From Escherichia phage vB_Eco_F31, in sequence record OP870147.1: a DNA stretch of 64,000 bases, one strand, 5' to 3'. The notes under the pieces are model-generated. The model was not told the origin of the DNA and did not search any database. It saw only the letters and a list, made by a program, of their open reading frames with translations. Positions 2,234 through 61,718 of this stretch are shown here, piece by piece. The position numbers and the translations under genes were made by a program. The stretch's first letter is position 1; each line of letters starts with the position of its first letter.

Positions 2234-2434
2234 TCACAAGTTACGTTTAAAAATTTCTGCCACTTCGAGAAGTTCTTCTTTAGTAGCTGTATCGGTTTGT
2301 ATTTTATATCGAATTTCTTTAAAGCGTTCTTTAAAGGACTCTGCTGACTCGATATCAAAAAATCTTTGGATAAGCCGGAATTCCCGGAGCACTGCTTTAT
2401 CAAAAAGTTCCAAGTCCACGTTATATGTTCTCAT
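2234..2434 (-). CDS. small hypothetical protein (rIIA.1 position)
   Basis: 66-aa ORF immediately upstream of rIIA, tightly packed. Confidence 0.45.
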   Translation of the reverse strand: MRTYNVDLELFDKAVLREFRLIQRFFDIESAESFKERFKEIRYKIQTDTATKEELLEVAEIFKRNL

Positions 2435-2526
2435 AATATTCTCTTCAGTAGATTCCTAGGGCACTATTACTAAAGACCATATAATTTATCATCTTATGTG
2501 TAATAGTGCCTCAGGCTATTCAGGAT

Positions 2527-3627
2527 TTACGCTGTGAAGATTTTATCCCACATCGCAACAACTGCATCTCGATTATACTTCTTCCATACTGCTTCAGCAC
2601 GTTTAACTCGAGCTTCGTATGTGTCAGTGAATTCTAATACAGCTTTTGTGTAAAGCGCAACTACTTCTTTCTTAGGAGTAGAGGAATCAATTTCTACACG
2701 CACAGTATCTGGGTCGTATTCGAATGTCGCATGAGGATAATCCTTAAAAACTAACTGGATTACAGGGACACCTTTAGAGATGGCTTCAATAGAACTATTC
2801 TCTACCGTACCTGTGTCAGGACACGTATTAATAAGTGCTTTAGCTGTTTTAAGACATTCCATAATTTCACTGTGTGGAGCATCAATAATAACAGGATATT
2901 TAGCTGGTGGTGCCCATTTGCTTGGACAATAACCAATACCATTTTCGCCTAGTGCTTTAATCGCTTCAAGAGCAACATCAGTACGACGCATTTTAGTGTC
3001 ATAACGTTGTGCACTAATAATCAGATCAGTCGCCGGAAGAACTTCAGGTTTCTCATTCAAACAAATAACCGGATAATCTTCGGCTTCAAACAACGGATTT
3101 GCTCGCCAATAATCATAATCGATTTTGTCAGTCAGACCTGAAGTCATATAACAATATTTGCGTTCAAATTCACGGAAGGCTTTAGTAGGAGCATAACTCT
3201 TACCGCCATTCTTATGAATTTGAATAGTTTGGTCCCAAATTTGAACAATACCACGAGATACCGGTTCAAATGGTGTTGCCATAAAATTCTTGTGAACTTT
3301 AGAGAGACCTGCGTCTTTAATTGCCTGAACGGTTAGTTTAGTCGGTTCCATAGTAACAACAAAATCATATTCATGGATGCCGGCTAGTTCAACAATCTTA
3401 CGAGCCATAGTATAACTCATACCTAGACTGAATTTAGTCAGATGACCAACAGGATGATGATTAACTTTCCAATCACCAAATGTGTCATTATCAAAACCGA
3501 TATAATCAATATCGGCACCAATAGAAACTAAATATTTCAACACATTTAAATGTACTGCTTCAAGACCACCTTGTACACGTTCAGGATTAAATGGGACTGC
3601 ACGAGATGGGATAAACATAACTTTCAT
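2527..3627 (-). CDS. GT-B fold glycosyltransferase, candidate hmC pentosyl(arabinosyl)transferase
   Basis: 366-aa ORF; N-terminal MKVMFIPS...GGLE and C-terminal G-x-VENSSIEAISKGVPVI resemble the GT1/GT4 E-x7-E donor-binding region; lies between rIIA and topoisomerase where T4 has no such gene. Confidence 0.55.
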   Translation of the reverse strand: MKVMFIPSRAVPFNPERVQGGLEAVHLNVLKYLVSIGADIDYIGFDNDTFGDWKVNHHPVGHLTKFSLGMSYTMARKIVELAGIHEYDFVVTMEPTKLTVQAIKDAGLSKVHKNFMATPFEPVSRGIVQIWDQTIQIHKNGGKSYAPTKAFREFERKYCYMTSGLTDKIDYDYWRANPLFEAEDYPVICLNEKPEVLPATDLIISAQRYDTKMRRTDVALEAIKALGENGIGYCPSKWAPPAKYPVIIDAPHSEIMECLKTAKALINTCPDTGTVENSSIEAISKGVPVIQLVFKDYPHATFEYDPDTVRVEIDSSTPKKEVVALYTKAVLEFTDTYEARVKRAEAVWKKYNRDAVVAMWDKIFTA

Positions 3628-3640
3628 AATTAAGCCTTAT

Positions 3641-3671
3641 TAAAATTAAAATGAAGCTCCCGAAGGAGCTT
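3641..3671 (-). terminator. hairpin terminator with UUCG loop downstream of gene 39
   Basis: AAGCTCC-TTCG-GGAGCTT on the minus strand followed by T-rich tract; overlaps the gene 39 stop. Confidence 0.5.
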
Positions 3672-5487
3672 AGGACATCCATTCTTTACGAAGTTCTGAA
3701 TCATCACCCATCAACATTTCAAAGAGTTCTTTCCAATTTTCAGGAAGTTTAACTACGTCGTACACAGGGTTCTGAATCATTTCACGATATTCTGACTTTT
3801 CAAGGGAGCCTAATCCCTTGATGTATCGAATACTATGCTTAGGCAGTGTATCTTTAACTTCTTCATACTCAGCTACAGTATAAAACCATTTTTGAGTTTT
3901 GCCAATTTGTGCAATAATTACAGGCGTTTTAACAAAGCGAATACGTCCTTGTTCAAACAATTCAGGCCAATTACTAAAGAAAGCAAGCAAAGCCGGATAG
4001 ATACTTCCAAGACCGTCATGATCGGCATCGGTCATAATTGCAATATTACGATAGTTCGTATTCTCTGCCTTTTCACCAAGAATAAGACCTGTGATAGCAC
4101 AGATATCAAAGAGCTCTTTGTTCTTCATCATATCAGCATATGACATACCCCAGCTATTCATCACCTTACCACGTAATGGGAATCCGCCGTGTAGTTCACG
4201 GTCACGAACATCAATGAGATAACCAATTGCCGAATCACCTTCTGTTAAGAACAATGTCGTATCTGCATCTTTACCACATTGGTTAGCTTTAATATGCTTA
4301 TGAACCTTAGCTTTAGTTGCCTTTTTAGCTGCTTTAGTTTCTGCAGCCTTTTCTGCTGCCAATTTACGAGCTAATGCTGCTTCAACAATAGGCATAATCA
4401 AGGCTTCGTTTTTAAGAAGTGCCTGAGCAATTTTCTTAGCATCCAATTGGATATGATTACGAATATCACCATACGTTGACGTTAAACGTTCTTTAGTCTG
4501 AGAATCAAAACGCATGTTGCTCATGTCTCTAATAAACATCAACATTGTGAGACATTCTTTAACACGAGCTTTAGTGACTTCAATACCCTTATATTTCTTT
4601 TTAATACCCGGCAAAAGATGTTCGCAGATATCATCCATTACACATTCAACATGATGACCACCATTTTTAGTATGGATATTATTCACATAAGTTAAATGAC
4701 GGAAGCCATCTGGTGATGTTGTGAATGCTATAGAGACTTTATCATTTTCTTGAATGATGTTATCTTCACCAAATTGTTTAGCAAATCGTTTAAAATTACC
4801 ATCAACCTTTTTACCATTAAATGTGAACTTGATATCAGGATAAACGACTGCCAATGTTTGAAGTCTGTCTAAAGTAATATCTAAATAAATTTGAGATAAA
4901 TTATGCTCTTCAAATGAAGAGAAATCAGGAGTGAAGATTACTTTAGTGCCTTTACCTTTAGATTTCTTAGAAGACCATGATTTGTTTTCCATTCCGTTTG
5001 AACAGTTAACAGTGATTTCATTTTCGCCATCTGACGTTATGCCTGTAAACAACGTAGAGAAGATATTAGTTAAACTACTCCCGACGCCGTTCATACCACC
5101 AGTCTTGCGTTCAGAGTCATCACCAAAGTTACCACCGGCCTTTGGAATAGTCCAGGCTGCTACAGGCCCAGGAATTTGTTCACCCGTTTGGTCGGTAACT
5201 AAACCTTGAGGAATACCACGTCCGTTATCTTCCACCGAAACTTGATTATTTTTAATTTGCACATCAATTTTATTTGCAAACTTAAATGATGTACGAATAG
5301 CTTCATCAACCGAGTTGTCAATAATCTCATCGATTAATTTAACCAGACCAGGAACATATTCAACTTGTTGATATTTACCAAACAAAAAACGCTCATGTGC
5401 TTCTTTAGCAGAAGAACCAATATACATACCACTACGTTTCTTAATATGTTCTACATCTGACAATACCTTAATTTCATTTTTAATCAT
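3670..5487 (-). CDS. 39: DNA topoisomerase II large subunit (GyrB-like ATPase + Toprim), single uninterrupted ORF
   Basis: 605-aa ORF with GHKL ATPase and Toprim-like motifs (GGxxGxG-like NGVGSS, DADxDG = TDADHDG); equals T4 gp39+gp60 fused as in several T4 relatives. Confidence 0.85.
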   Translation of the reverse strand: MIKNEIKVLSDVEHIKKRSGMYIGSSAKEAHERFLFGKYQQVEYVPGLVKLIDEIIDNSVDEAIRTSFKFANKIDVQIKNNQVSVEDNGRGIPQGLVTDQTGEQIPGPVAAWTIPKAGGNFGDDSERKTGGMNGVGSSLTNIFSTLFTGITSDGENEITVNCSNGMENKSWSSKKSKGKGTKVIFTPDFSSFEEHNLSQIYLDITLDRLQTLAVVYPDIKFTFNGKKVDGNFKRFAKQFGEDNIIQENDKVSIAFTTSPDGFRHLTYVNNIHTKNGGHHVECVMDDICEHLLPGIKKKYKGIEVTKARVKECLTMLMFIRDMSNMRFDSQTKERLTSTYGDIRNHIQLDAKKIAQALLKNEALIMPIVEAALARKLAAEKAAETKAAKKATKAKVHKHIKANQCGKDADTTLFLTEGDSAIGYLIDVRDRELHGGFPLRGKVMNSWGMSYADMMKNKELFDICAITGLILGEKAENTNYRNIAIMTDADHDGLGSIYPALLAFFSNWPELFEQGRIRFVKTPVIIAQIGKTQKWFYTVAEYEEVKDTLPKHSIRYIKGLGSLEKSEYREMIQNPVYDVVKLPENWKELFEMLMGDDSELRKEWMS

Positions 5488-5499
5488 GTTGTCTCCTCG

Positions 5500-5535
5500 T
5501 TATGAAGGTATTCTATCATCCGAAATCTAAAGCAA
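5500..5535 (-). promoter_or_regulatory. MotA-box middle-type promoter upstream of gene 39
   Basis: Minus strand TTGCTTTAG - 11 nt - TAGAAT directly after the terminator hairpin. Confidence 0.45.
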
Positions 5536-5551
5536 AAAGGGCCGAAGCCCT
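5526..5551 (-). terminator. hairpin terminator with UUCG loop
   Basis: AAGGGC-TTCG-GCCCTT followed by TTTTTGC on the minus strand; directly followed by a MotA-box-like promoter for gene 39. Confidence 0.55.
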
Positions 5552-5976
5552 TATTTAAATTTAATTTTCTGAAGTGTATCAATTGCAGCCAAACGCCCTT
5601 GTTCACTTTTAACTGTAATGACCACATCGCCTGATACGATCACCGAACCATCAACAAATTCTATAGAGCCTTTTTTGAAATCGACAGCTGTATCTGGTTC
5701 CTGAACTTCTTCAAAGAATTTAAATTCTGCACCATAAAGCAGAATATCACCTTGCATACTATGAATAGTTCGGCCATAATCGCCTACGGCTTCTACAGCA
5801 ATAACCGAAACACCGTAACCAATCATCTCTTCCACAATAAAATCTTTGGACAATAAAGTAGTATGCAGATTAGTATTAAGACGTTTACCAGTCGTATTAA
5901 GAATTCTCAAGAAATTATCTTCCTGTCCTTTGATAATACGATATTTCTTACCAACTTCAAAACCTTTAAAAGCCAT
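5551..5976 (-). CDS. hypothetical protein (goF position by synteny)
   Basis: 141-aa ORF downstream of gene 39; same size as T4 goF, not otherwise verified. Confidence 0.45.
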   Translation of the reverse strand: MAFKGFEVGKKYRIIKGQEDNFLRILNTTGKRLNTNLHTTLLSKDFIVEEMIGYGVSVIAVEAVGDYGRTIHSMQGDILLYGAEFKFFEEVQEPDTAVDFKKGSIEFVDGSVIVSGDVVITVKSEQGRLAAIDTLQKIKFK

Positions 5977-7380: not shown

Positions 7381-7406
7381 ATTATTCTCCTCTGGTTGAT
7401 ATGGAT

Positions 7407-7436
7407 ATAATATCAAAACCGGAGGAGAAGTAAACA
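7407..7436 (-). promoter_or_regulatory. early promoter GTTTAC-N17-TATTAT
   Basis: Minus strand GTTTAC + 17 nt + TATTAT upstream of ORF 6856-7380. Confidence 0.5.
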
Positions 7437-7439
7437 ACT

Positions 7440-8354: not shown

Positions 8355-8383
8355 AATTTTCTCTCTTTGTTTAAGTTGAATTC

Positions 8384-8413
8384 ATTATACTCCATCCGTC
8401 CTTGGATGTACAA
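8384..8413 (-). promoter_or_regulatory. early promoter cassette (variant of the repeated cassette)
   Basis: Minus strand TGTACA-N17-GTATAAT with CCAAGGACGGATGG in the spacer. Confidence 0.45.
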
Positions 8414-8415
8414 CA

Positions 8416-8910: not shown

Positions 8911-8942
8911 AATGTTTTTTCCTGTTTGGTTAAGATAGAAAG

Positions 8943-8973
8943 ATTATACTCCAACCATCCTTGGTTGTAAACT
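8943..8973 (-). repeat. repeated early promoter cassette (copy 1), PeSL-like
   Basis: attatactccaaccatccttggttgta identical to copies near 50750 and 51770; GTTTAC-N17-GTATAAT on the minus strand. Confidence 0.55.
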
Positions 8974-8977
8974 GATT

Positions 8978-13433: not shown

Positions 13434-13460
13434 GATAGACCTCCATTTAAAGATAAGCCT

Positions 13461-13490
13461 ATCATAACACGAGAGGAGGGAATGTAAACT
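13461..13490 (-). promoter_or_regulatory. early promoter upstream of modB
   Basis: Minus strand GTTTAC-N17-TATGAT, then GGAGG RBS. Confidence 0.5.
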
Positions 13491-13653
13491 ACTTTTTAAG
13501 CTTTCCTACTAAAGGACCATCAGGACCAGGTTGTTCTAACATGAATAAGGATGCTTTAAAAAGCAATGTCAACCCTTTCACCATTCGATACCATGTCTCA
13601 AAGTCTTTTTCCTTGATTTCTAGTAAGAATTTCTCTTTCAATTTCTCTTTCAT
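13489..13653 (-). CDS. small hypothetical protein
   Basis: 54-aa ORF by manual translation; its ATG overlaps the upstream stop (ATGA coupling). Confidence 0.3.
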   Translation of the reverse strand: MKEKLKEKFLLEIKEKDFETWYRMVKGLTLLFKASLFMLEQPGPDGPLVGKLKK

Positions 13654-20113: not shown

Positions 20114-20139
20114 TTTGTTCTCCAGTAGTTGATAGGTCT

Positions 20140-20169
20140 ATAATAACACAACTACTGGAGAAGTAAACT
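20140..20169 (-). promoter_or_regulatory. early promoter upstream of the 105-aa ORF and dmd
   Basis: Minus strand GTTTAC-N17-TATTAT-AGACCTATCAAC; inverted repeat CCAGTAGTT/AACTACTGG around the -10. Confidence 0.55.
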
Positions 20170-20543: not shown

Positions 20544-20573
20544 AATGTTTTCCTCTTGGTTGGTGTAAGTACA

Positions 20574-20603
20574 TCATATCATGCCTAGAGGAAGATGTAA
20601 ACC
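20574..20603 (-). promoter_or_regulatory. early promoter downstream of gene 41
   Basis: Minus strand GTTTAC-N17-ATATGA immediately after the UUCG hairpin. Confidence 0.35.
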
Positions 20604-20606
20604 CCT

Positions 20607-20628
20607 AAAGGAGACCGAAGTCTCCTTT
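20607..20628 (-). terminator. stable UUCG hairpin downstream of gene 41 (terminator or RNA stability element)
   Basis: AAAGGAGAC-TTCG-GTCTCCTTT; no U-run on the minus strand, so function uncertain. Confidence 0.35.
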
Positions 20629-20630
20629 CA

Positions 20631-36406: not shown

Positions 36407-36448
36407 TTAATTTGATGTGGTCATTATAACCACATCGTGTTAAAGCGT

Positions 36449-41178: not shown

Positions 41179-41204
41179 AAGTACCTCTTGGCTCAATTCA
41201 TAGG

Positions 41205-41245
41205 TCTATTATATCATAATATTTAGAGACCTATCTTAAAGCACG
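41205..41245 (-). promoter_or_regulatory. promoter upstream of gene 55 (MotA-box-like TGCTTTAAG plus TATTAT/TATAAT)
   Basis: Minus strand cgTGCTTTAAG - 13 nt - TATTAT, then TATAATAGACCTAT; inverted repeat TAGGTCT/AGACCTA. Confidence 0.4.
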
Positions 41246-41250
41246 AGATA

Positions 41251-42379: not shown

Positions 42380-42442
42380 GATATTTTCCTCATTTTAAGA
42401 CGATAGGAAGATAATAACATGTCTTCCTATCGTTGTACATTA

Positions 42443-43510: not shown

Positions 43511-43538
43511 TTTGTTTTCCTCTATAGCAGATGGTTTA

Positions 43539-43567
43539 ATCTTAACATATCTATCGAGGATGTAAAC
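43539..43567 (-). promoter_or_regulatory. early promoter (GTTTAC-N17-TAAGAT)
   Basis: Minus strand GTTTAC + 17 + TAAGAT upstream of ORF 43328-43510. Confidence 0.4.
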
Positions 43568-43654
43568 TGTTTTATGAAAAATATTTTTGATTTGAGAGGG
43601 GCACAAGGAGATAGTGAAGTGAAGATTCCAATGGATTATATTAGAAATGAGATA

Positions 43655-43679
43655 AAGAAGACCAGGCGGCACCTGGTCA
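43655..43679 (-). terminator. rho-independent terminator downstream of nrdH-like gene
   Basis: GACCAGG-TGCCG-CCTGGTC followed by TCTTCTTTATCTCATTT on the minus strand. Confidence 0.55.
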
Positions 43680-50720: not shown

Positions 50721-50749
50721 AATATTTTCCTCTCGTTAAGATAAATTCA

Positions 50750-50778
50750 TTATACTCCAACCATCCTTGGTTGTAAAC
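50750..50778 (-). repeat. repeated early promoter cassette (copy 2), PeSL-like
   Basis: attatactccaaccatccttggttgtaaac; GTTTAC-N17-GTATAAT on the minus strand upstream of ORF 49770-50720. Confidence 0.55.
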
Positions 50779-50782
50779 TATT

Positions 50783-51742: not shown

Positions 51743-51769
51743 TTTATATTCCTCATGTTGAAAAATTTA

Positions 51770-51797
51770 TTATACTCCAACCATCCTTGGTTGTACA
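51770..51797 (-). repeat. repeated early promoter cassette (copy 3), PeSL-like
   Basis: attatactccaaccatccttggttgtaca upstream of ORF 50783-51742. Confidence 0.55.
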
Positions 51798-57445: not shown

Positions 57446-57581
57446 TTTACCATACTCGTTTCAATAAGATTCACTATGCCGTTTACCATGTTATAAGTAA
57501 ACATCGGATAATTGTATTGTACTACAACATAAGCGATAAGCAAAAGTTTCATTTTGTTCTCCGTTTGTTTTGATAGGACTA

Positions 57582-57610
57582 CTATAACATAGTCCTACCA
57601 AGATGTAAAC
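57582..57610 (-). promoter_or_regulatory. early promoter GTTTAC-N17-TTATAG-AGTCCTATC
   Basis: Perfect 8-bp inverted repeat TAGGACTA/TAGTCCTA around the -10. Confidence 0.5.
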
Positions 57611-58003: not shown

Positions 58004-58030
58004 AACGTTCTCCTCTAGTAAGTAAGGACT

Positions 58031-58059
58031 ACTATAACACAACCTGAGGAGAAGTAAAC
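58031..58059 (-). promoter_or_regulatory. early promoter GTTTAC-N17-TATAGT
   Basis: Upstream of ORF 57824-58003; followed by AGGAG RBS. Confidence 0.5.
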
Positions 58060-58065
58060 TGATAG

Positions 58066-58100
58066 ATGCCAAAAAAAGCCCCAACCATAAGGAAGGGGCT
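58066..58100 (-). terminator. rho-independent terminator downstream of rI
   Basis: AGCCCC-(12-nt loop)-GGGGCT followed by a T7 run on the minus strand. Confidence 0.6.
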
Positions 58101-58106
58101 AGTAAA

Positions 58107-61657: not shown

Positions 61658-61685
61658 TTTGATTTCTCCTCTAGTTGACAGGTCT

Positions 61686-61714
61686 ATAGTAACACAACTA
61701 GAGGAGAAGTAAAC
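61686..61714 (-). promoter_or_regulatory. early promoter upstream of regB
   Basis: Minus strand GTTTAC-N17-TACTAT-AGACCTGTCAACTAGAGGAG; inverted repeat CTCTAGTTG/CAACTAGAG. Confidence 0.55.
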
Positions 61715-61718
61715 TACT

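What the first reader, a model, noticed from the sequence alone, without database searches (positions are those of the whole stretch)
2457..2510. Perfect 11-bp inverted repeat between the glycosyltransferase gene and rIIA.1
GGCACTATTAC (2458-2468) and GTAATAGTGCC (2497-2507) flank an AT-rich 28-bp spacer that contains TATATGG. This could be a large-loop terminator, an operator controlling the rIIA.1-rIIA transcript, or a recombination scar at the edge of the inserted glycosyltransferase gene.
Basis: seen in the sequence. Interest (0 to 1): 0.35.

Follow-up and report, generated by a model that had tools for sequence, protein, structure and literature searches.

The report
Conserved hairpin upstream of phage rIIA.1
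A real but ordinary 61-base stem-loop sits between the DNA-arabinosyltransferase gene and rIIA.1 in RB69-like (Mosigvirus) phages; it is most likely an RNA hairpin inside a multi-gene message, and it is not a classical terminator, promoter or operator.

Summary
The arms are 2460-2470 and 2500-2510, with a 29-nt spacer. It extends to 16-nt arms (2455-2470 / 2500-2515; 14 Watson-Crick pairs, one G-U, one A·C).

All nearby genes are on the minus strand: gp39 topoisomerase, a UUCG terminator, RB69 ORF003c-type glycosyltransferase (GT), the hairpin, rIIA.1, rIIA.

A perfect 11-bp repeat alone is not beyond chance. The whole hairpin is: RNA dG -32 kcal/mol, z = -5.5.

It is single-copy and present in all 154 Mosigvirus records, and in none outside the genus. 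It is at least as conserved as the flanking coding DNA. Substitutions concentrate at the helix's two A·C mismatches, and 4 of 5 create pairs.

It has no U-tract, no promoter match above chance, no MotA box, no late promoter, no Rfam match, and it does not robustly mask the rIIA.1 ribosome-binding site. T4 has a canonical early promoter at the same position.

Best reading (about 0.4): an intercistronic RNA stem-loop acting as a decay or processing barrier or weak attenuator, next to a lineage-specific gene insertion. This resembles a degraded PeSL. Interest is low.

The parts
2500..2515 (-). 5' arm of the hairpin as transcribed (CCUGAGGCACUAUUAC). The perfect core is 2500-2510 and the outer 4 bp extension is 2512-2515. 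A2511 faces C2459 as an A·C mismatch.
2471..2499 (-). 29-nt A/T-rich spacer. It is predicted to fold into an upper stem (2491-2495 with 2473-2477; 2487-2489 with 2479-2481) and a 5-nt apical loop, which makes the element a rod of about 24 bp. C2498 and A2471 form a second A·C mismatch. The spacer holds TGATAAATT / TATATGG on the minus strand and TATAAT on the plus strand, but no complete promoter.
2455..2470 (-). 3' arm of the hairpin (GUAAUAGUGCCCUAGG). The perfect core is 2460-2470.
2527..3627 (-). Glycosyltransferase gene (366 aa), 98.9% identical to RB69 ORF003c, the putative hmC arabinosyltransferase. Its stop codon (2527-2529) lies 11 nt upstream of the hairpin base.
   Evidence: PMC6024577
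2234..2434 (-). rIIA.1 (66 aa). Its start codon is 20 nt downstream of the hairpin base. The weak Shine-Dalgarno GAAGAG at 2441-2446 lies outside the stem.
3654..3671 (-). UUCG-tetraloop intrinsic terminator between gp39 and the glycosyltransferase gene. This is the other edge of the Mosigvirus-specific segment.
   Evidence: annotated as a terminator in PhAPEC2

Best explanation
The element is an intercistronic RNA stem-loop. It is carried on the read-through early/middle message that runs gp39 -> arabinosyltransferase -> rIIA.1 -> rIIA on the minus strand.

It forms a rod of about 61 nt: 16 bp in the lower stem and 8 bp in the upper stem. It starts 11 nt after the transferase stop codon and ends 20 nt before the rIIA.1 start codon.

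The proposed action is as a decay or processing barrier. It would block 3'-exonucleases and so protect the transferase segment, and/or cap the 5' end of the rIIA.1-rIIA segment after endonucleolytic cleavage in the flanking A/U-rich single strands. It may also attenuate read-through weakly. Either way it would uncouple the amounts of the two gene products.

What is shown: the structure, its position, its genus-wide conservation, and the absence of terminator, promoter and operator signatures. What is inferred: that it acts at the RNA level, and what it does there.
For: - The hairpin is thermodynamically exceptional (z = -5.5) and forms with probability >=0.99 whatever the flanking context.
- It lies wholly in a 92-nt non-coding gap. 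That is long for this tightly packed genome, and no strong promoter (10 of 12 or better) lies between it and rIIA.1. rIIA.1 therefore probably depends on read-through RNA that carries both arms.
- All 154 Mosigvirus records have it.
- The 61-nt consensus is identical in 111 of 154 records. Adjacent 61-nt coding controls are identical in 64 of 154 and 98 of 154.
- In 20 genomes chosen for divergence, 5 of 46 paired positions vary, 2 of 11 loop positions vary, and 4 of 4 positions in the two A·C mismatches vary (Fisher p about 6e-4).
- Four of the five changes at mismatch positions create a pair. Each mismatch was repaired on either side in different lineages: A-U in AV109/116, G-C in VIPECOMC06, U-A in PhAPEC2, C-G in ESCO47.
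- The distant GT homologue in Acinetobacter phage Minot is also followed, shortly after its stop codon, by an unrelated hairpin without a U-tract.
Against: - No transcript data exist for any Mosigvirus.
- The sequences are 97.5-100% identical, so formal covariation is nil: 391 of 500 shuffles reach the observed score.
- The core stem is broken in RB69 itself (U2463C), in WFbE185 (C2508A) and at the outermost pair in NHEP29, so the constraint is loose.
- Any transition at an A·C mismatch makes a pair automatically. The adjacent CT->TC double change in AV109/116 looks like one templated DNA event rather than selection on RNA.
- Classifying the second mismatch (2498/2471) as part of the helix was done after seeing the data. 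With only the a-priori mismatch, I estimated p at about 0.03; that figure was not computed with a tool.
- G-U versus A·C asymmetries do not favour either strand.
Confidence: 0.4

Rival explanations
1. It is a DNA-level quasi-palindrome with no present function. It would be a by-product, or degraded PeSL (promoter-early stem-loop), of the recombination that put the glycosyltransferase cassette where T4-type phages have an early promoter. It would be kept near-perfect by recency and by templated (strand-switch) correction during replication.
For: - It lies at the edge of a lineage-specific 1.2-kb segment in a region that differs among T-even genera. T4 has a promoter only, other genera have small ORFs, and Mosigvirus has the GT.
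- PeSLs and degraded PeSLs are reported next to such indels (PMC4122927; PMC2839356).
- This phage has many stem-loop-bearing early promoters, and a remnant-like ATTACA-17-TATGGT lies inside the hairpin.
- The AV109/116 dinucleotide change yields a perfect 16-bp palindrome in one step.
- Genus diversity is only 2-3%, so retention of the repeat needs no selection.
Against: - The arms are unique in the window, and each Mosigvirus genome holds one matching place apart from a tandem duplication. There is therefore no visible partner for PeSL-type exchange.
- No promoter halves above chance level remain.
- The non-coding hairpin is at least as conserved as neighbouring coding DNA.
- Paired positions vary less than unpaired ones (p = 0.02).
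Confidence: 0.3
2. It is a promoter-bracketing hairpin of the PeSL or gene-e type. A weak promoter in the loop would start transcripts that lack the 5' arm, while read-through transcripts would carry the whole hairpin and be translated or handled differently.
For: - This architecture is common in the window. The 5' arm sits in the promoter spacer, the -10 box in the loop, and the 3' arm in the leader.
- It is described for RB49 PeSLs and for T4 genes e, soc, 49 and I-TevI (PMC3014915).
- T4 has an early promoter at exactly this position.
- The loop holds TGATAAATT (extended -10-like) and ATTACA-17-TATGGT.
Against: - The best match is 9 of 12, and the window has about 1,100 matches of 8 or more of 12.
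- It lacks the A/T-rich upstream tract and the TG(T) before the -10 box that this phage's real promoters show.
- The tool's own scan does not list it.
- The majority haplotype (A2486G) weakens the -10-like boxes.
- The Shine-Dalgarno sequence is outside the stem.
Confidence: 0.1
3. It is a translational coupling device. The hairpin would bring UCUUCA at the end of the transferase gene (2535-2540) next to UGAAGA in the rIIA.1 ribosome-binding site (2442-2447). rIIA.1 would then be translated only when a ribosome terminating on the transferase gene melts that helix.
For: - This 6-bp helix closes the minimum-energy and centroid folds of the 116-nt segment, with pair probabilities of 0.72-0.90.
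- In other T-even genera rIIA.1 overlaps the preceding ORF, which is classical coupling.
Against: - The helix probability falls to 0-0.17 in every larger context (161-667 nt).
- The Shine-Dalgarno sequence is then about half unpaired.
- A 6-bp complementarity is expected by chance, and both segments are invariant, so no covariation test is possible.
Confidence: 0.1
4. It is an intrinsic (rho-independent) terminator ending the glycosyltransferase transcript.
For: - It begins 11 nt after the GT stop codon.
- RB49 PeSL stem-loops without classical U-tracts reduced read-through in reporter assays (PMC2839356).
Against: - There is no U-run after the stem (CCCUAGGAAUCUACUG).
- The loop is 29 nt and the stem is A/U-rich (7 of 11 core pairs are A-U).
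- The scan does not report it, while it does find the UUCG terminators at 3654-3671 and 5537-5552.
- No strong proximal promoter for rIIA.1 was found, so efficient termination here would probably cut off its transcription.
Confidence: 0.07

Closest known systems
PeSL (promoter-early stem-loop) cassettes of T4-like phages (Arbiol et al. 2010, PMC2839356; Comeau et al. 2014, PMC4122927), including 'degraded' PeSLs
   Same: It is an intergenic stem-loop immediately upstream of a Shine-Dalgarno sequence and start codon. It lies in a hyperplastic spot next to a lineage-specific gene insertion. The window itself has many intact PeSL-like promoters, and T4 has one at the homologous position.
   Different: There is no functional-looking -35/-10 pair. 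The stem is 11-16 bp with a 29-nt loop, rather than a short G/C-rich stem. The sequence is single-copy rather than a repeated motif.
Inhibitory leader hairpins of T4 genes e, soc, 49 and I-TevI (McPheeters et al. 1986, as reviewed in PMC3014915)
   Same: It is a hairpin present only on read-through transcripts, just upstream of a gene.
   Different: In those cases the Shine-Dalgarno sequence or AUG is inside the helix and a late promoter lies in the loop. Here the Shine-Dalgarno sequence is 9-14 nt outside the stem, and no TATAAATA is present. The loop reads GATAAATT, or GATAGATT in most phages.
Intercistronic stabiliser hairpins in bacterial operons (REP-type, e.g. malE-malF; cited from my own knowledge)
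   Same: It is an imperfect palindrome without a U-tract, lying between two cistrons of one transcript. The proposed action as a 3'-exonuclease barrier is the same.
   Different: It is not a repeated family, it has no similarity to E. coli or plasmid DNA, and it is longer, with a structured loop.
UUCG-tetraloop intrinsic terminators of T-even phages
   Same: It is an intergenic stem-loop on the coding strand after a stop codon.
   Different: Those have 6-7 bp G/C-rich stems, a 4-nt loop and a U-run (3654-3671 and 5537-5552). This element has none of these features.
RNase III processing sites of phage T7 early mRNA (cited from my own knowledge)
   Same: It is a rod-like intercistronic helix of about 24 bp interrupted by small internal loops.
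   Different: No sequence similarity or Rfam match was found. T-even mRNA processing is mainly by RNase E and RegB. This comparison was not testable here.

Membership tests
Intrinsic (rho-independent) terminator | G/C-rich stem with a short (3-8 nt) loop | tested here: not met
   The loop is 29 nt and 7 of 11 core pairs are A-U.
Intrinsic (rho-independent) terminator | Run of U immediately after the stem | tested here: not met
   The sequence after the stem is CCCUAGGAAUCUACUG on the minus strand and UCAGGCUAUUCAGG on the plus strand. The scan does not list the element.
PeSL (promoter-early stem-loop) | Sigma-70-like early promoter (TTTACW-N17-TAYWAT in T-evens) within the element | tested here: not met
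   The best match is ATTACA-17-TATGGT, 9 of 12, which is chance level. It has no A/T-rich upstream tract and no TG before the -10 box.
PeSL (promoter-early stem-loop) | Stem-loop adjacent to or overlapping the promoter, followed by a Shine-Dalgarno sequence and start codon | tested here: met
   The stem-loop is at 2455-2515, the Shine-Dalgarno sequence at 2441-2446 and the ATG at 2432-2434.
PeSL (promoter-early stem-loop) | Repeated, conserved motif at many intergenic sites of the genome | tested here: not met
   The arm sequence is unique in 64 kb apart from one 1-mismatch hit. Each genome holds one matching place, except for a tandem duplication in JK45.
PeSL (promoter-early stem-loop) | Located in a hyperplastic region next to an indel between related phages | tested here: met
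   The GT segment is present in Mosigvirus only. T4 and other genera have different content between gp39/60 and rIIA.1.
RBS-sequestering leader hairpin (T4 gene e type) | Shine-Dalgarno sequence and/or AUG base-paired within the helix | tested here: not met
   The Shine-Dalgarno sequence and AUG lie outside the stem. The optional long-range helix has probability <=0.17 in realistic contexts.
RBS-sequestering leader hairpin (T4 gene e type) | Proximal promoter starting inside the hairpin | tested here: inconclusive
   There is no late (TATAAATA) or MotA-type motif and only a chance-level sigma-70 match. No transcript data are available.
Protein operator (palindromic binding site) | Half-sites overlapping a functional promoter and/or recurring at other regulated genes | tested here: not met
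   No credible promoter was found, and the half-site does not recur in the window.
Known structured RNA family (Rfam) | Covariance-model match | tested here: not met
   Only four spurious hits with E of 7.8-8.8, none on the hairpin.
RNase III processing site | About two turns of near-continuous duplex, cleaved by RNase III | not testable with these tools
   The predicted rod has 24 bp with internal loops. Cleavage cannot be assessed in silico.

The most novel reading that the evidence does not exclude
The hairpin is a dedicated cis-regulatory RNA, for example a nuclease processing site or the binding site of a phage protein. It would set the ratio between the hmC-arabinosyltransferase and the rII membrane proteins in ara-hmC phages. 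Alternatively, it is a natural quasi-palindrome hotspot where templated mutation can be watched across sequenced isolates.
Probability: 0.1. Interest if true: 0.4.

Novelty: new member of a known kind. Interest (0 to 1): 0.15.

Why it matters
The direct importance is small. It adds one unannotated, genus-wide conserved stem-loop to the RB69-type genome map. It also shows that Mosigviruses have lost the proximal early promoter that T4 has upstream of rIIA.1. rIIA.1 there therefore probably depends on read-through from the arabinosyltransferase gene.

If the hairpin does set relative stability of the two message halves, it would matter for engineering or expressing the ara-hmC modification gene.

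The pattern of pair-forming substitutions at the two A·C mismatches is a tidy natural example of helix perfection, whether by selection or by templated correction.

Tried and rejected
- **Canonical terminator.** Rejected: no U-tract, and the scan does not list it.
- **Sigma-70 / T4 early promoter in the loop, on either strand.** The minus-strand match is only 9 of 12. The plus strand has a perfect TATAAT (2479-2484) but no -35 box, no TG and no gene to serve.
- **MotA middle promoter and late TATAAATA.** Both are absent at the hairpin.
- **Rfam.** Nothing found.
- **Second copies or a mobile-element reading.** The arms are unique in the window. The exact pattern in IMG/VR hits only two Mosigvirus contigs. 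There is no match in 5,426 E. coli genomes or 72,556 plasmids.
- **Shine-Dalgarno masking or translational coupling through UCUUCA/UGAAGA.** This appears only in the 116-nt fold and collapses in larger contexts.
- **Covariation test.** Uninformative at 99% mean column identity.
- **Search for diverged carriers of the GT, to obtain real covariation.** Metagenomes returned only 4 loci at 98-99% identity. The next relatives are Acinetobacter phages at 43% identity in another context.
- **JK45 503-bp tandem duplication as evidence of recombination at the repeat.** The junction lies outside the repeat.
- **Transcriptome literature for RB69/Mosigvirus.** None found. The Daegelen & Brody 1990 papers on T4 rIIA transcription are not held.

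Full report
**Observation**

The plus strand reads CCTAGGGCACTATTAC (2455-2470), then 29 nt, then GTAATAGTGCCTCAGG (2500-2515). TATATGG is in the spacer on the minus strand.

A perfect inverted repeat of >=11 bp with a 3-60 nt spacer is not rare. The window has four, and dinucleotide shuffles give 1.6 +/- 1.5. The extended structure is exceptional:

- Minus-strand RNA 2540-2425 folds at -32.1 kcal/mol, z = -5.5, with 0 of 200 shuffles as good.
- Plus-strand RNA gives z = -3.1.
- Single-stranded DNA gives -11.7 kcal/mol, z = -3.7.
- The core stem has pair probability >=0.99 in every context from 161 to 451 nt.

The spacer itself folds into a 5+3 bp upper stem. The whole element is therefore a rod of about 24 bp containing two A·C mismatches (2511/2459 and 2498/2471).

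**Context**

All genes here are on the minus strand:

| Feature | Coordinates |
|---|---|
| gp39 (fused 60+39 topoisomerase subunit) | 3670-5487 |
| UUCG-tetraloop terminator | 3654-3671 |
| 366-aa glycosyltransferase (GT) | 2527-3627 |
| Non-coding gap containing the hairpin | 2435-2526 (92 nt) |
| rIIA.1 | 2234-2434 |
| rIIA | 8-2221 |

The terminator is found by the scan and is annotated in PhAPEC2.

The window is a Mosigvirus (RB69-like), about 98% identical to many isolates. The GT is 98.9% identical to RB69 ORF003c. ORF003c was proposed as the hmC arabinosyltransferase (PMC6024577) and is annotated that way in the BASEL phages.

The hairpin begins 11 nt after the GT stop codon and ends 20 nt before the rIIA.1 AUG. 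The weak Shine-Dalgarno sequence GAAGAG lies outside the stem.

**Distribution**

- The 161-nt region occurs in 154 phage records, all Mosigvirus, at 97.5-100% identity, and nowhere else in the phage collection.
- The exact pattern in IMG/VR hits only two Mosigvirus contigs.
- Metagenomes add four loci at 98-99% identity.
- Nothing matches in E. coli genomes or plasmids.
- The arm occurs once in the 64-kb window, apart from a single 1-mismatch hit.
- GT homologues outside the genus (Acinetobacter phages, about 43% identity) lie in a different gene context. There the GT is followed by an unrelated UUCG hairpin.
- Other T-even genera have small ORFs between gp39 and rIIA.1, with rIIA.1 overlapping the preceding ORF.
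- T4 has only 54 nt there, and that stretch is a textbook early promoter: TTTACT-17-TATAAT with a CCACA-AGGA-TGTGG hairpin in its spacer.

Relative to T4, about 1.2 kb (terminator, GT, hairpin) therefore replaces the rIIA.1 early promoter.

**What the element is not**

- **Intrinsic terminator.** There is no U-run on either strand and the loop is 29 nt. The scan that finds the two neighbouring UUCG terminators does not list it.
- **Early promoter.** This phage's promoters are easily recognised: TTTACA-17-TATAAT with an A/T-rich upstream tract and TG(T) before the -10 box, with about 30 sites scoring 10-12 of 12 on the minus strand. The hairpin offers only ATTACA-17-TATGGT (9 of 12), which is chance level, and has none of the accessory features.
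- **Plus-strand promoter.** The plus-strand TATAAT in the spacer has no -35 box, no TG and no gene to serve.
- **Middle or late promoter.** There is no MotA box and no late TATAAATA. In most genomes the loop reads GATAGATT.
- **Known RNA family.** No Rfam family matches.
- **Operator.** An operator is unsupported because there is no credible promoter and no recurrence of the half-site.
- **Ribosome-binding-site mask.** A 6-bp helix between the end of the GT gene (UCUUCA) and the rIIA.1 ribosome-binding site (UGAAGA) closes the 116-nt minimum-energy fold. Its probability drops to <=0.17 in larger contexts. I do not rely on it.

**Comparative evidence for a real structure**

I aligned 20 Mosigvirus sequences, deliberately including the most divergent, plus four metagenome loci.

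Within the 61-nt hairpin, 11 sites vary:

| Position class | Variable sites |
|---|---|
| Paired | 5 of 46 |
| Loop | 2 of 11 |
| The two A·C mismatches | 4 of 4 |

- Mismatch positions against paired positions give Fisher p about 6e-4. All non-paired against paired gives p = 0.02.
- Four of the five substitutions at mismatch positions create a Watson-Crick pair.
- Each mismatch has been repaired from either side in different lineages. A2511·C2459 became A-U in AV109/116 (with the neighbouring G-U becoming G-C) and G-C in VIPECOMC06. C2498·A2471 became U-A in PhAPEC2 and C-G in ESCO47.
- These variants stabilise the hairpin, from about -27 to -34 kcal/mol in AV109/116 and VIPECOMC06.
- Genus-wide, the hairpin consensus is identical in 111 of 154 records. 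Flanking 61-nt coding controls are identical in 64 of 154 and 98 of 154.

Caveats:

- Formal covariation is nil at 99% identity.
- Any transition at an A·C mismatch makes a pair.
- The second mismatch was classified after seeing the data.
- The AV109/116 change is an adjacent dinucleotide swap, which looks like a single templated quasi-palindrome correction in DNA.
- The core stem is broken in RB69 (A·C), in WFbE185 (A·G) and at the outermost pair in NHEP29.

The helix therefore matters somewhat, or is at least actively perfected. It is not strictly required.

**Mechanism**

rIIA.1 has no credible proximal promoter. The hairpin lies entirely within RNA that must read through from the GT gene. 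I therefore favour, at about 0.4, an intercistronic RNA stem-loop that acts as a decay or processing barrier, and perhaps as a weak attenuator, separating the fates of the GT and rIIA.1-rIIA segments.

The main rival, at about 0.3, is a functionless DNA quasi-palindrome or degraded PeSL left at the edge of the GT insertion. PeSLs and their degraded forms are reported next to exactly such indels, and intact PeSL-like promoters abound in this window.

Three minor rivals remain:

- an embedded weak promoter (about 0.1);
- translational coupling (about 0.1);
- a true terminator (about 0.07).

**Verdict**

This is a real, conserved, unannotated stem-loop of an ordinary kind. It is a new member of the known class of T-even intergenic stem-loops. 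Its function is unproven and its interest is low.

Noticed in passing
window 20114-20168, 61658-61718, 7381-7439, 58004-58106, 20544-20630, 43511-43676, 13434-13540 (minus strand): A family of early promoters of the form GTTTAC-TTCTCC...-TGT-TATTAT-AGACCTATC-...GGAGAA-ATG. The 5' arm of an 8-14 bp inverted repeat (anti-Shine-Dalgarno-like TTCTCC) lies in the promoter spacer, the -10 box is in the loop, and the 3' arm contains the Shine-Dalgarno sequence. Read-through RNA would therefore mask the ribosome-binding site, while promoter-proximal RNA would not. The family is PeSL-like. The two 14-bp examples at 20118 and 61664 are near-identical to each other.
   Followed up: partly
window 8911-8977, 50721-50782, 51743-51797, 8355-8415; T4 locus L021 2404-2457: A second class of early promoter, TTTACA-ACCAAGGATGGTTGG-AG-TATAAT, carries a small hairpin in the spacer. 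T4's own early promoter upstream of rIIA.1 (TTTACT-TTACCACAAGGATGTGG-TATAAT) has the same design. Mosigvirus lacks it at rIIA.1.
   Followed up: partly
Shigella phage JK45, MK962757.1 2412-3419 (locus L023 612-1619): A 503-bp perfect tandem duplication comprises the first 17 nt of rIIA.1, the hairpin and the last 411 nt of the glycosyltransferase gene. It creates a truncated extra ORF. The junction is CCCATTTAC|CGTTATATG, with microhomology only. It may be genuine or an assembly artefact.
   Followed up: yes
window 2458-2459; phages AV109 and AV116 (loci L026, L027), probably also AV118: A CT->TC swap makes the arms a perfect 16-bp palindrome and removes the in-frame TAG. As a result, annotators extended rIIA.1 by 10 codons into the hairpin.
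   Followed up: yes
window ~2301-2326 (minus); T4 ~2270-2295: A MotA-box-like CGCTTTA followed 12 nt later by TAAAAT lies inside the rIIA.1 coding sequence and is conserved between this phage and T4. It is a likely middle promoter for rIIA. A canonical TGCTTTA...TAGAAT middle promoter sits at about 5510-5534, just after the UUCG terminator at 5537-5552 upstream of gp39.
   Followed up: partly
window 2540-2600; phage ESCO47 (OM386662.1 87866-87926): ESCO47 is only 85% identical over the last 61 nt tested of the glycosyltransferase 3' end, against >=95% in all other records. This suggests a local mosaic patch close to the hairpin.
   Followed up: no
window 42400-42433, 36407-36448, 41179-41250, 57446-57609: Further inverted repeats bracket -10 boxes, for example GATGTGGT-TATAAT-GACCACATC and ATAGGTCT...TGATATAAT-AGACCTAT. 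The hairpin-around-the-promoter design is therefore widespread in this genome.
   Followed up: no
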